This document shows, piece by piece, positions 14,203 through 24,441 of a DNA stretch of 64,000 bases. This stretch comes from Lytechinus pictus (Eukaryota). Each line of letters begins with the position of its first letter. Position 1 is the stretch's first letter. Where the stretch lies: positions 20,152,001 through 20,216,000 of the forward strand of contig NC_087250.1 of the NCBI RefSeq assembly GCF_037042905.1, given 5' to 3'. Under the pieces are notes generated by a model. It had not been told where the DNA came from. It was given only the letters and a program-made list of their open reading frames with translations, and searched no databases. The translations under genes and the position numbers were made by a program.

Positions 14203-14338
14203 ATGCCATTACCAGCAACTGATGATTATTCAGCTGTCAAGGCTTACTTCACAGCCAAGGAATGGGCGGAGACCAGTGACTATGAAAAACTACGTCTCAA
14301 GAACATCAAGGAAAACTACGAGATGATGATCGAAGTTG
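14203..14338 (+). CDS. PRDM9: PRDM9 exon: ancestral KRAB domain
   Basis: [38 protein letters not shown] matches the PRDM9/SSX KRAB pattern YF...EW....EK.R..N.K.NY. Acceptor TAG at 14189..14191, donor GTGAGT. Confidence 0.92.
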
Positions 14339-17300
14339 GTGAGTTGGCCACCGTGTTTAAGTCTAGACTGAAGTCTGATGAATAGGTTGCAAGCTTTGGA
14401 AGTGTACCCATCTTCTTGGTTTATAACACCATGTGCACTTTACATAAAGTCAAGACTCTGGAGTGTCAGTCCACCTCAATCAAATTAATTCTTTATAAAG
14501 GAAAATGGGAAAAGGTTATTAATGCATGGAATACTATGGAATTATTTGTTGAATATTTTCCAGTATTGCTGAGGTGTTTCTCAAGCCACCTGGGGGAACA
14601 TACCAATTTTTCCTTGGGTTAGGTAAACAACTTGGTTTAAAATCTAAGTCTCTTTTTTTTTTCAATATTAAGGAAACACAAATGACAATTCTTTCAAAGA
14701 GTCATGTTGTTTTTCTAGCTAATACTGTGCATATCATTCAGCAGTGAATATTTGTGCAAAATCATGTCTAACAAGGTCTTAGTGTTAACTTCAGGCTAGA
14801 ACATATCTGGGGATAATGTATTTGGCACTCTTATTGATCAATGGTATTGATCCCTACATTAACTTACCATTTTATATGTATGTCTACTTGATTAAATCAA
14901 ACATTTTTTTGTGTAAAATCACCAGAGGTGGGAACCCAAAGGGTTGTAAGCCCCCCCCCCCCTCCATCATTTTCAAATGGTCAAAGAGACAAACAGAAAA
15001 AAGAGGAAAGAAGAATGAGCATAAAAAAGAGAGAGGTATCAGTGGCAGATGGGGGGGGGGGGCATGATGAGCCCCCCCCCCCCTTGGAGAGGCATAATCA
15101 AAACCCCGTTTTGAAAGTGAGGACAAAATGACCTTCAATTTTTCAGTGAAGACCTTATTATTGAATTACTTTAGTATATAATTAACTTGAGAAAACATAA
15201 ATGTAAATGAAGAATTGATTTGCACGATATTTTCTATTCTTGCAGGCCTAAACGTGCCCTCACAAATTAGTCCAGCTTTGGTTATCCACATATCTGTATA
15301 CAGTCTACCATTCATGCACAATTAAATGTGCCCTCTCCTGGTAATTTAATTTCATACTTAATATCCCAGTACACTTCTTTTACACAGGACTTGATGTGGG
15401 TCCCCCAGAATTTATGCGACCTCGTCGTGGGAGAAAGAAACAGATCATTGAAGAGAGCGATAGTGAAGATGAGGAATGGAAACCGAAAAGGGCAAAGAAA
15501 AAGTCAAGAGGTATGTATTTGTATATTAAGAGTGAACTAAAATAAAAAGAAAAGAAAATATCTCTGCCTCTAGTTATCCACATGTCTCTATGCAGGCAAC
15601 CATCTACCATATGACCTGCATATGTCATTTATTCTATTAAATTATTTACTATTGCTAACCTACCATATGCTTTTACATGTACTAGATATTTTAACTTACA
15701 TGTAGGTGCTTTCTACTAAAGATTTTAAAATAATCATGTGCTTTCTACTAAAGATATTAAGATACTCATGTGCTTTCTACTAAAGATATTAAGATACTCA
15801 TGTGCTTTCTACTAAAGATATTAAGATACTCATGTGCTTTCTACTAAAGATATTAAGATACTCATGTGCTTTCTACTAAAGATATTAAGATACTCATGTG
15901 CTTTCTACTAAAGATATTAAGATACTCATGTGCTTTCCCTTAAATATATTAAGATACTCATCTGCTTTCTACTAAAGATATTAAGATACTCATGTGCTTT
16001 CTACTAAAGATACTCATGTGCTTTCTACTAAAGATATTAATATACTCATGTGCTTTCTACTAAAGATACTCATGTGCTTTCTACTAAAGATATTAATATA
16101 CTCATGTGTAGGGACAGTGATTTTCCGCGATCGCGGAAAACGGACGGAATTCACGGAAAGGGCCTTTTGAAACGGAAAATGGCATTTCAAACGGAAAATC
16201 ACGGAAAACGTATTTTCCCTCAAAATACACAGAATAGCAACAGAAAATACTCCAAAATCACAACAAAATGAGAATATTAAATGGCCCAAAAAACCCAGAA
16301 AACACGATCTCACTTCGCTACTATCATGACAATTCACACATCGTGACTGCACTCGACATCAGCACACTCGATTGTACCCCGCACCGTACCGTACCCGTAC
16401 CCGGCCGGCCGGGTTGGGCTTCACATGCACACATGTATCGTTCAACTACATGTACACAGTTGTGTGTTGCTGCCCTCTACGTTTGAAGATGTAACAGCAC
16501 GATATCGTGGTCTTAACATCCAAGATGGCGGATTGGGAAAAGACGTTGACTGATGATAACGATGTCCAAAAACCCCCAAAATTTTCGATGAAATATCATT
16601 TCACCGTGAAATAATGCTAATAATATGAAAGGTGAGGATGTATGCATGCAAAATGGGTGTGTTAAAATATTTTATTCACCCGCATAGATCCGATTAGAAC
16701 GGATTTTATTGTGTTGTTGGTACAGTAGCAGATACAAATTTTGACCAGTGCGAGTGTGCATGTAAATGTGTAAACGGAATTGTCACTTTTCCGTGTGTAC
16801 AAAGTCTATGGGGAAACGGAATTTCCGTTTTCTGACATGCTGAAACGGAATTTGAGATTTTCTGAAACGGAAAATCACTGTCCCTACATGTGCTTTCTAC
16901 TAAAGATACTCATGTGCTTTCTACTAAAGATATTAAGATACTCATGTGCTTTCTACTAAAGATATTAAGATACTCATGTGCTTTCTACTAAAGATACTCA
17001 TGTGCTTTCTACTAAAGATATTAATATACTCATGTGCTTTCTACTAAAGATACTCATGTGCTATCTACTAAAGATATTAAGATACTCATGTGCTTTCTAC
17101 TAAAGATATTAAGATACTCATGTGCTTTCCCTTAAATATATTAAGATACTCATGTGCTTTCCCTTAAATATATTAAGATACTCATCTGCTTTCTACTAAA
17201 GATATTAAGATACTCATGTGCTTTCTACTAAAGATACTCATGTGCTTTCTACTAAAGATATTAATATACTCATGTGCTTTCTACTAAAGATACTCATGTG

Positions 17301-23300: not shown

Positions 23301-24441
23301 TATATGTGAAGGGCTATGCACAAATAATCAAAATCCACCAAGACATAAATACATCCATACAGGTGCAAAGCACCATGTGTGCAATCAATGTGGTAAGGTA
23401 TTTGTTTCTAAATCTCAGCTCACAATACATAAACGAATCCATACAGGTGAGACGCCCTATGTATGTGATCAATGTGGTAAGACATTTAATCAAGAACATC
23501 ATCTCACATACCATAAACGAATCCATACAGGTGAGAAGCCCTATGAATGTGATCAATGTGGTAAAGCATTTAATAAAAAAACTAATCTCACAAGACATAA
23601 ACGAATCCATACTGGTAAGAAGCCCTATGTATGTGATCAATGTGGTAAGGCATTTAATGTGGAAAATAATCTCACAATACATAAACGTATCCATACAGGT
23701 GAGAAGCCCTATATATGTGATCAATGTGGTAAGGCATTTAATCAAGAACAGAATCTCACAACACATAAACGTATCCATACAGGTGAGAAGCCCTATGTAT
23801 GTGAACAATGTGGTAAGGCATTTAATCTCATGGGTGATCTTACAAGACATAAACGAATCCATACAGGTGAGAAGCCCTATGTATGTGATCAATGTGGTAA
23901 GACATTTAATCAAGAACAGAATCTCACAGCACATAAACGTATCCATACAGGTGAGAAGCCCTATGTATGTGATCAATGTGGTAAGGCATTTAATCGTGAA
24001 CATCATCTCACATACCATAAACGTATCCATACAGGTGAGAAGCCCTATGTATGTGATAAGTGTGGTAAGACATTTAATCAAGAACAGAATCTCACAACAC
24101 ATAAACGTATCCATACAGGTGAGAAGCCTTATGTATGTGATCAGTGTGGTAAGGCATTTAATCGTGAATATAATCTCACAACACATAAACGAATCCATAC
24201 AGGTGAGACGCCCTATGTATGTGATCAATGTGGTAAGGCATTTAATGATGGAAGTACTTTCAGGAAACATAAACGAATCCATACAGGTGAGAAGCCCTAT
24301 GTATGTGATCAATGTGGTAAGGCATTTAATGATGGAAGTAATTTCAGAAAGCATAAATCAAAGTGTCAAGGTGCAAACACACAGTGCAATAAGAAACCTG
24401 TGCAGTCAGAAATAAGAAACATCAAAACCAATGAATTCTAA
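14203..24441 (+). CDS. PRDM9: PRDM9/Meisetz, full-length (KRAB-SSXRD-Zn knuckle-PR/SET-C2H2 array), about 955 aa; join(14203..14338,15388..15510,18033..18112,18657..18972,19537..19650,20827..21092,22247..22499,22862..24441)
   Basis: All introns are GT-AG with compatible phases, and the joined 2868 nt stay open to the TAA. The domain order is diagnostic for PRDM9. The donor at 18972 (alternative 18804) and the acceptor at 22862 (alternative 22871) are uncertain. Confidence 0.9.
15388..15510 (+). CDS. PRDM9: PRDM9 exon: KRAB C-terminus and acidic linker
   Basis: [34 protein letters not shown] matches the PRDM9 GL...P.FM...DEEW.P pattern; CAG acceptor, GTATGT donor. Confidence 0.88.
15700..17900. 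repeat. Intronic minisatellite with mixed 32-bp and 24-bp units
   Basis: CATGTGCTTTCTACTAAAGATATTAAGATACT and a shorter CATGTGCTTTCTACTAAAGATACT; interrupted at 16109..16886. Confidence 0.95.
16109..16886. mobile_element. Non-autonomous hAT-like element inserted in the minisatellite
   Basis: Perfect 19-bp TIR TAGGGACAGTGATTTTCCG, subterminal ACGGAA repeats, duplicated target CATGTG. Confidence 0.85.
18033..18112 (+). CDS. PRDM9: PRDM9 linker exon
   Basis: TAG acceptor, CCG|GTAAGT donor; [27 protein letters not shown]; phases 1/0 fit the neighbouring exons. Confidence 0.75.
18657..18972 (+). CDS. PRDM9: PRDM9 low-complexity linker exon
   Basis: Pyrimidine tract plus TAG acceptor, open frame [15 protein letters not shown]..., phase-1 donor GTAAGA. 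The 3' end is uncertain. Confidence 0.65.
19215..19361. mobile_element. MITE with CAGGGGCCGCGGAAC TIR
   Basis: CAGGGGCCGCGGAAC ... GTTCCGTGGCCCCTG, with TAAAG on both flanks. Confidence 0.75.
19537..19650 (+). CDS. PRDM9: PRDM9 exon: SSXRD motif
   Basis: [24 protein letters not shown] matches the Y..R.R....Y.E...P.DD.Y SSXRD pattern; donor GTAAGT. Confidence 0.88.
19864..20168. mobile_element. MITE (GGCCCGTATTCTGA family)
   Basis: Same TIR and body as 1417..1727. Confidence 0.8.
20827..21092 (+). CDS. PRDM9: PRDM9 exon: zinc knuckle and first half of PR/SET
   Basis: [16 protein letters not shown] knuckle; [11 protein letters not shown]...FGPYDG...SGYSWE. Confidence 0.95.
21288..21442. mobile_element. 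Harbinger-like MITE
   Basis: GGGCCCGTTTCATAA TIRs, CAG TSD. Confidence 0.85.
21938..22212 (+). mobile_element. tRNA-derived SINE (family B) in a PRDM9 intron
   Basis: TGGTCTAGTGG and GGTTCAAATCC boxes; the (ATT)n tail ends about 35 bp before the SET exon acceptor. Confidence 0.85.
22247..22499 (+). CDS. PRDM9: PRDM9 exon: second half of PR/SET
   Basis: YVDS...[55 protein letters not shown]. Confidence 0.95.
22862..24441 (+). CDS. PRDM9: PRDM9 last exon: post-SET zinc finger, spacer and 12-finger array
   Basis: YRCEYC...HLKWKH, then 11 C2H2 fingers with TGEKPY-type linkers and a terminal C2HC finger. Confidence 0.95.
23374..24366 (+). repeat. PRDM9: 84-bp coding minisatellite (zinc-finger array)
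   Basis: Twelve units, nearly identical at the DNA level outside the recognition helix. Confidence 0.95.

What the first reader, a model, noticed from the sequence alone, without database searches (positions are those of the whole stretch)
14203..24441. Complete, apparently catalytically intact PRDM9 in a probable invertebrate
Seen: all PRDM9 modules are present, with tyrosines at the positions equivalent to human Y276 (FGPY), Y341 (IYYR) and Y357 (LLVYYG). Knowledge: in vertebrates the complete KRAB-SSXRD-SET-ZF architecture with these tyrosines marks PRDM9 that directs recombination hotspots. KRAB-bearing Meisetz is known from sea urchin, but a hotspot role outside vertebrates is not established to my knowledge.
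Basis: partly seen in the sequence, partly recalled or inferred. Interest (0 to 1): 0.75.

Follow-up and report, generated by a model that had tools for sequence, protein, structure and literature searches.

The report
One of three sea-urchin PRDM9 copies
This is a real, intact sea-urchin copy of PRDM9, the gene that positions meiotic recombination in vertebrates; such genes are already known from invertebrates, but this urchin keeps three complete copies and this one shows signs of being the least active.

Summary
Observation confirmed. 14203-24441 holds an open 8-exon gene (955 aa): ancestral KRAB, SSXRD-like exon, zinc knuckle, PR/SET with the Y276/Y341/Y357 equivalents, one lone finger and 11 tandem fingers. 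PRDM9 is the best solved-structure match. Exons 1-6 equal a Lytechinus pictus RefSeq protein (345 of 345 residues) that is annotated as stopping in intron 6. Complete invertebrate PRDM9 is published (sea urchin, termites, 28 cnidarians); a hotspot role there is still unproven. What this adds: three full-length lineages occur in both L. pictus and L. variegatus, so the duplicates predate that split. Finger diversity sits on the DNA-contact residues (0.48-0.55), as in working vertebrate PRDM9. Against this copy being the active one: a Met-to-Val change at the human M316 position seen in 1 of 253 homologues; 7 of 10 helices still resembling L. variegatus fingers (other L. pictus records 2 of 18; post hoc); and SET-exon RNA records that carry sibling letters. 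KRAB-to-SET splicing, gonad expression and ZCWPW1/2 were not tested. Earlier scan notes on other DNA of this genome already mention three full-length copies and about 25 SET-less offshoots. New member of a known kind.

The parts
14203..14338 (+). Exon 1: start codon and first part of the ancestral KRAB (residues 1-46)
   Evidence: Vertebrate-KRAB profile hit E=3.4e-14 in six-frame window scan; identical to P0002
15388..15510 (+). Exon 2: second part of the KRAB region and acidic/basic tail (residues 46-87)
   Evidence: Second-best KRAB profile hit, E=2.8e-5; identical to P0002
18033..18112 (+). Exon 3: basic linker
   Evidence: Identical to P0002; tblastn; no RNA depth in the four runs laid
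18657..18972 (+). Exon 4: low-complexity linker; donor at 18972 chosen among 7 frame-keeping donors behind acceptor 18657
   Evidence: donor matches P0002 and an RNA contig of a sibling copy (table 8)
19537..19650 (+). Exon 5: SSXRD-like motif (about 19575-19649)
   Evidence: Top hit of an 18-sequence vertebrate SSXRD profile, E=0.002; no Pfam hit; spliced in sibling RNA contig
20827..21092 (+). Exon 6: pre-SET zinc knuckle and first half of PR/SET; Y276-equivalent codon at 21036-21038
   Evidence: Pfam PF21549; PDB PRDM9 best hit
22247..22499 (+). Exon 7: second half of PR/SET; Y341 equivalent 22385-22387, Y357 equivalent 22433-22435; Val at the human M316 position 22310-22312
   Evidence: Pfam PF21549/PF00856; PDB PRDM9 81 bits versus 59 for the next PRDM
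22862..24441 (+). Exon 8 (alternative in-frame acceptor 22871): lone C2H2 finger from 22888, linker, finger array, stop
   Evidence: nearest-lineage public models carry the residues given by the 22862 acceptor
23359..24282 (+). 11 tandem 84-bp C2H2 fingers, followed by a 12th unit (to 24366) that lacks the last histidine
   Evidence: 92% nucleotide identity outside the helix codons, 48% at contact codons
20484..20728 (+). Two degenerate tandem copies of the start of exon 6, with their own AG acceptors (decoy acceptors in intron 5)
   Evidence: 65/78 and 133/155 identical; skipped by the sibling RNA contig

Best explanation
A genuine full-length PRDM9 orthologue of Lytechinus pictus, one of three paralogue lineages, that works like vertebrate PRDM9: in meiocytes the finger array binds a DNA motif, the PR/SET domain trimethylates H3K4 and H3K36 nearby, and the KRAB/SSXRD head helps bring in the break machinery, so this copy contributes some share of recombination hotspots beside its siblings. 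Shown here: architecture, open frame, orthology by best hit, tyrosines, contact-site diversity, paralogy. Inferred from vertebrate PRDM9: catalysis, meiotic expression and hotspot placement.
For: Open 955-aa frame with seven GT-AG introns. PRDM9 ranks first among PDB PRDMs: 165 versus 115 bits for PRDM11 with the S. purpuratus relative, 81 versus 59 for exon 7 itself. KRAB profile 73.6 bits. Share of finger diversity at -1/+2/+3/+6 is 0.48 (0.55 without finger 1), the highest of all 20475 four-position sets; pN/pS 0.58/0.30 at contact codons versus 0.06/0.16 in the framework. Working salmonid PRDM9 has 0.49 and 0.55 (PMC11703093, passages; computed over alleles, so only roughly comparable). 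Orthologous arrays differ between the two Lytechinus species: 1 identical helix across 5 orthologous pairs. Sea-urchin Prdm9 is listed among germ-line transcripts in PMC2779102 (passage).
Against: No hotspot, DSB or histone-mark data for sea urchins were found. Termite full-length PRDM9 could not be tied to hotspots (PMC12047536, passages). A recently retired salmon copy still scores 0.47 (PMC11703093), so the statistic lags function. The copy-specific signs listed under the first rival. RNA depth on the exons was at most about 3 in three raw-read runs of unknown tissue.
Confidence: 0.45

Rival explanations
1. A retired duplicate: the siblings (P0005, P0006 lineages) do the PRDM9 job and this copy, still open, has left the hotspot race and is drifting.
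For: Val at the M316 position in 1 of 253 aligned homologues (232 Met, 17 Leu, 3 others) and 1 of 70 full-length ones. 11 private substitutions versus 2 in its L. variegatus orthologue, 10 after removing one shared with P0009 (binomial p 0.02-0.04). 7 of 10 distinct helices lie within one mismatch of L. variegatus fingers versus 2 of 18 for the other three L. pictus records (Fisher p=0.003, post hoc). 1.2 framework changes per finger versus 0 in P0003 and P0018. All RNA records listed over 22310 and 22335 carry the sibling letters.
Against: No stop, frameshift or broken splice site. Other pairs show the same rate asymmetry (P0020 12 versus P0005 1, p=0.003), and P0005, P0004 and S. purpuratus arrays also have 1.0-1.4 framework changes per finger. 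If P0004 is another allele of this locus, its array shares 0 of 15 helices with the window's, which would mean fast turnover. Read counts are tiny (1-2 raw reads and one contig at the diagnostic site). The effect of the Val is untested.
Confidence: 0.3
2. Sea-urchin PRDM9 copies act as sequence-specific chromatin regulators (for example against mobile elements or in germ-line transcription), and hotspots are set otherwise; fast finger change reflects that chase.
For: Earlier scan notes report about 25 SET-less KRAB-finger offshoots with fast-changing fingers in this genome (AI notes, not checked here), which would show that fast fingers need no recombination role. Several echinoderm and amphioxus full-length copies have low contact-site diversity (0.14-0.31). 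Family RNA was seen in runs that are not known to be gonad.
Against: The joint retention of KRAB, SSXRD, three tyrosines and a homogenised 84-bp array is the combination tied to hotspot control in vertebrates (PMC5519329, passages and section 25) and found in 28 cnidarians together with ZCWPW1/2 (preprint, Results).
Confidence: 0.15
3. The public annotation is right: the main product ends in intron 6 (347 aa, KRAB-SSXRD plus half a SET domain), and exons 7-8 are not used.
For: P0002 (XP_063956537.1) equals exons 1-6 plus read-through to a stop in intron 6. No protein matching exon 8 exactly was found among 99 candidates of 287-914 aa (best 84%). The exon 6-7 joint was not among the rows shown (57 joints and 12 rows not shown).
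Against: Exons 7-8 are open with a strong acceptor, 98-99% like the siblings' SET half, whose models splice at the same points. No AATAAA/ATTAAA in intron 6. Why the model stops is not known.
Confidence: 0.1

Closest known systems
Vertebrate PRDM9 (human 4IJD/6NM4, mouse 4C1Q; salmonid PRDM9 alpha1)
   Same: Domain order KRAB-SSXRD-knuckle-PR/SET-lone finger-array; three catalytic tyrosines; KRAB on two exons, SSXRD on one, array on the last; diversity at -1/+2/+3/+6.
   Different: Function shown there, not here. Vertebrates usually keep one copy with all hallmarks (preprint Discussion; PMC11703093). Val instead of Met at position 316.
Sea-urchin Meisetz/PRDM9 (S. purpuratus P0023/P0009; L. 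variegatus P0003, P0018, P0020; L. pictus P0005, P0006)
   Same: Same gene family; 549 of 599 residues identical to P0003 before the array. The S. purpuratus gene with ancestral KRAB is cited in PMC8835667 (passages; original paper Birtle and Ponting 2006, recalled, not seen).
   Different: This copy's public model is truncated; its array and SET substitutions are its own. I found no paper on Lytechinus PRDM9 paralogues (2 papers, both on regeneration, listing only).
Cnidarian multiple full-length PRDM9 paralogues (bioRxiv 10.64898/2026.09.07.749791)
   Same: Several full-length, tyrosine-intact copies per genome (10 of 28 species), same exon layout, function inferred from sequence only.
   Different: There most duplicates arose after speciation, some within a genus, and the abstract says the pattern was unseen in other taxa. 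Here three lineages are shared by two species of a deuterostome genus.
Salmonid full-length PRDM9 alpha2.2 (O. mykiss)
   Same: A full-length, tyrosine-intact second copy judged to have left the hotspot race: the model for the first rival.
   Different: Its contact-site share is 0.37 with few alleles (PMC11703093); the window copy has 0.48-0.55 and its allelic diversity is unknown.
Termite full-length PRDM9 (PMC12047536)
   Same: Complete invertebrate PRDM9.
   Different: Hotspots were mapped there but not linked to the predicted motifs; no map for sea urchins was found.

Membership tests
PRDM7/9 subfamily | PR/SET domain closest to PRDM9 among PRDMs | tested here: met
   PRDM9 chains rank first among 14-15 PDB sequences for exon 7, P0002 and P0008. 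SET tree of 46 named homologues puts the window in an echinoid clade (SH-aLRT 98), but it has no non-PRDM9 outgroup.
Full-length PRDM9 | Ancestral KRAB domain | tested here: met
   73.6 bits with a profile of 15 vertebrate PRDM9 KRAB regions; shuffles at most 7.6. Pfam KRAB not hit.
Full-length PRDM9 | SSXRD motif before the zinc knuckle | tested here: met
   Weak but placed right: top window hit E=0.002; 1 of 2000 shuffles reached the model's 8.0 bits. Pfam SSXRD not hit.
Full-length PRDM9 | Y276, Y341, Y357 conserved | tested here: met
Full-length PRDM9 | Tandem C2H2 array, homogenised, with diversity at DNA-contact residues | tested here: met
   0.48/0.55; rank 28 of 99 arrays among the homologues held (median 0.37)
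Full-length PRDM9 | All domains on one spliced transcript | tested here: inconclusive
   Only 17900-23330 was laid. Joints exon 4-5 and 5-6 in one contig and exon 7-8 in 4 reads, all with sibling letters; exon 6-7 not shown; exons 1-2 outside the stretch.
Hotspot-directing PRDM9 | Array ranks at the top among the species' C2H2 genes (Baker et al. test) | not testable with these tools
   No genome held for this window
Hotspot-directing PRDM9 | High allelic diversity of the array | not testable with these tools
   One haplotype only; P0004 may be an allele or a fourth copy
Hotspot-directing PRDM9 | ZCWPW1 and ZCWPW2 present in the genome | not testable with these tools
   No genome; no query sequence from a tool; paper and note searches gave nothing on sea urchins
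Hotspot-directing PRDM9 | Meiotic expression, H3K4me3+H3K36me3 and genotype-dependent DSB hotspots | not testable with these tools
   Needs gonad data

The most novel reading that the evidence does not exclude
Lytechinus places its recombination hotspots with three full-length PRDM9 genes at once, kept across a species split and trading zinc fingers between copies (identical helices shared by L. pictus P0004/P0006 and P0005/P0006), so that hotspot erosion is buffered by paralogues instead of alleles alone; this copy is a reservoir of older fingers. It would be the first PRDM9-directed hotspot system shown outside vertebrates.
Probability: 0.25. Interest if true: 0.75.

Novelty: new member of a known kind. 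Interest (0 to 1): 0.4.

Why it matters
Whether PRDM9 directs hotspots outside vertebrates is open: cnidarian evidence is sequence-only and the termite test was inconclusive. L. pictus is described as a genetically enabled model (title of a paper cited), with abundant gonad tissue and high polymorphism (recalled), so it is a practical place to test this. Three long-kept full-length copies would also test whether several PRDM9 genes can share the job, and this copy offers a possible early stage of retirement. The gene itself is an expected family member, and its public annotation probably needs correcting.

Tried and rejected
Whole genome: none held, so copy number, synteny, ZCWPW1/2 and a within-species finger ranking could not be checked. 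Pfam missed KRAB and SSXRD; own profiles were used. Run search: no RNA holder on record; 4 of 24 runs were laid, on 17900-23330 only; most depth came from intronic repeats, and exon depth was too low to judge expression. First finger-diversity run used wrong positions and was discarded; one search is the corrected one. The search for non-PRDM9 outgroups returned 150 hits all at 138 bits or more, with no identified outgroup, so the SET tree is unrooted. A test for finger exchange between paralogues was not clear-cut: near-identical helices 22 of 128 within species across lineages, 5 of 65 between orthologues, 26 of 143 between species across lineages, the last driven by the window copy. No second PRDM9 copy in the 64 kb window (tblastn). 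No Rfam hit. No date for the L. pictus/L. variegatus split was found. PMC11212366 has nothing on urchin PRDM9. No structure or complex was predicted: it could not have decided the effect of the Val. Rejected: another PRDM subfamily; a classical pseudogene; a SET-less KRAB-finger gene.
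Full report
Observation. The stretch 14203-24441 runs from an ATG to a stop. Eight exons (14203-14338, 15388-15510, 18033-18112, 18657-18972, 19537-19650, 20827-21092, 22247-22499, 22862-24441) joined over seven GT-AG introns give one open frame of 955 residues. Pfam finds the PR domain on exons 6-7 and zinc fingers on exon 8, and nothing on exons 1, 2, 4 and 5. A profile built from 15 vertebrate PRDM9 KRAB regions scores the model 73.6 bits against at most 7.6 for 2000 shuffles, and picks exons 1 and 2 first among 2118 six-frame pieces. An 18-sequence SSXRD profile picks exon 5 first (E=0.002); its 8.0 bits on the model were reached by 1 of 2000 shuffles. 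The three tyrosines are present and align with those of human and mouse PRDM9 structures; the residue numbers 276/341/357 are from PMC5519329 and the number 316 is my count from them.

Identity. Exon 6 matches a Lytechinus pictus RefSeq protein at 100% (P0002, XP_063956537.1), and the model's first 345 residues are identical to it. I infer the window is L. pictus. That record stops two residues into intron 6, so the public model lacks half the SET domain and all fingers; no exact match to exon 8 was found among 99 candidates. Among solved PRDM domains PRDM9 ranks first by a wide margin (165 versus 115 bits with the S. purpuratus relative, 81 versus 59 with exon 7). A SET tree of 46 named homologues, chosen by me from 262 held, places the window with echinoids (SH-aLRT 98), next to sea stars and a brittle star (80); it has no non-PRDM9 outgroup.

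Paralogues. Public proteins give two more full-length L. pictus copies (P0005, P0006) and three full-length L. variegatus copies (P0003, P0018, P0020, plus the N-terminally short P0007); within each species they share one contig length, which suggests one chromosome. Trees without the array pair P0006 with P0018 (99/97), P0005 with P0020/P0007 (100/100 in the full tree, 98/99 for the N-terminal part; unresolved in the exon-8 tree), and the window with P0003 and P0004 (92/91; 89/92 for exon 8; unresolved in the N-terminal tree). So at least two, probably three, lineages predate the split of the two species. S. purpuratus copies group together (94/93), and Diadema antillarum also has several records. 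P0004, from a different annotation, lacks exon 7 and may be an allele or a fourth copy. These are predicted proteins from single assemblies.

Finger array. Eleven canonical fingers (23359-24282) are 92% identical in DNA outside the helix codons and 48% at the contact codons; pN/pS is 0.58/0.30 at contact codons and 0.06/0.16 in the framework (pairwise counts, not independent). The share of amino-acid diversity at -1/+2/+3/+6 is 0.48, or 0.55 without the first finger, computed as in PMC5519329 section 25. It is the top of all 20475 four-position sets and ranks 28 of 99 arrays held. L. variegatus P0003 and P0018 reach 0.61 and 0.59 (1.0 without finger 1); P0005 and P0006 0.51. Working salmonid PRDM9 has 0.49-0.55, a retired full-length copy 0.37 and a recently truncated one 0.47 (PMC11703093), so the window's value fits function but does not prove it.

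Signs against this copy. Val stands at the M316 position in 1 of 253 aligned homologues (232 Met, 17 Leu, 3 others); its effect is untested. The copy has 11 substitutions at sites invariant in six relatives against 2 in P0003 (10 after removing one shared with P0009; p 0.02-0.04), but P0020 versus P0005 is as lopsided. Seven of its 10 distinct helices are within one mismatch of an L. variegatus finger, against 2 of 18 for the other L. pictus records (p=0.003; noticed first, tested after), as if its array had turned over less. Against this, P0004, if allelic, shares no helix with it.

RNA. Four of 24 listed runs were laid on 17900-23330. One 554-base contig joins exons 4-5-6 and skips the decoy acceptors; it has 25 differences and a Gly like P0006. 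Four reads join exons 7-8 with letters that fit the P0005 type. All records listed over 22310 and 22335 show the sibling letters (2, 1 and one contig). Some reads at 18836 differ by that one silent base only and could be from this locus. Depth was at most about 3 and the tissues are unknown, so this supports the family's exon structure, not this copy's expression, and is weak evidence of silence. Exons 1-2 were outside the stretch laid, so KRAB-to-SET splicing remains open.

Mechanism. By established knowledge of vertebrate PRDM9, the array would bind a motif, SET would lay H3K4me3 and H3K36me3, and KRAB/SSXRD would link to the break machinery. I give 0.45 to this copy taking part, 0.3 to a retired duplicate beside active siblings, 0.15 to a non-recombination role of the family, and 0.1 to the truncated product being the real one.

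What is in print. The cnidarian preprint 10.64898/2026.09.07.749791 (read: abstract, Introduction, Results, Discussion, one Methods section; supplements not seen, and they may bear on taxon coverage) reports full-length PRDM9 in 28 species and several copies in 10. PMC12047536 (passages) finds full-length termite PRDM9 and hotspots but no link between them. PMC2779102 (passages) reports positive selection in Nematostella and Capitella fingers and a sea-urchin germ-line transcript. PMC8835667, PMC2794550 and PMC4760075 (passages) note the sea-urchin or echinoderm gene and the old age of the subfamily. PMC5519329 (passages, section 25) and PMC11703093 (passages) give the vertebrate criteria. PMC11212366 and PMC13745590 (passages) added nothing. 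Birtle and Ponting 2006 is recalled only. Searches showed no study of Lytechinus PRDM9 paralogues or sea-urchin hotspots; the library lacks most subscription papers.

Earlier scan notes on other stretches of this genome mention three full-length copies and about 25 SET-less KRAB-finger offshoots. The first agrees with my count from public proteins; the second I could not check.

Verdict. Real and correctly described, a new member of a known kind. The value lies in the three long-kept copies in a tractable invertebrate and in the likely annotation error. Interest 0.4.

Noticed in passing
window 2326-4149 (-): 607-codon open frame with RVT_1 and zf-RVT domains: part of a non-LTR retroelement.
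   Followed up: partly
window 16109-16886: 778-bp element with 19-bp terminal inverted repeats and a 4-6 bp target duplication, inserted into a 32-bp minisatellite (15706-17869) in intron 2.
   Followed up: partly
window 13881-14130, 19681-19855, 20484-20728: Three exon edges of this gene each have two degenerate tandem duplicates (start of exon 1, end of exon 5, start of exon 6), 70-86% identical. Local duplication seems unusually frequent around this gene.
   Followed up: partly
window 24283-24366: The last finger unit ends in Cys instead of the second His; the other Lytechinus copies with an array also end on such a unit.
   Followed up: no
proteins P0004/P0006 and P0005/P0006: Identical recognition helices are shared between different L. 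pictus paralogues, and one window helix is identical to one in the other lineage of L. variegatus: possible conversion between copies.
   Followed up: partly
proteins P0030, P0033, P0034, P0035, P0040 (amphioxus), P0015 (brittle star): Full-length PRDM9-like records with KRAB and three tyrosines but low contact-site diversity (0.14-0.22): candidates for loss of the hotspot role.
   Followed up: no
window 24690-25900 and 29050-30250: Arrays rich in the palindrome AACGTT on both sides of 26-29 kb; probably repeat or transposon remnants.
   Followed up: no
window 25450-64000: No other long protein-coding frame stands out downstream; the region is mostly repeats, with no Rfam hit in the window.
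   Followed up: no
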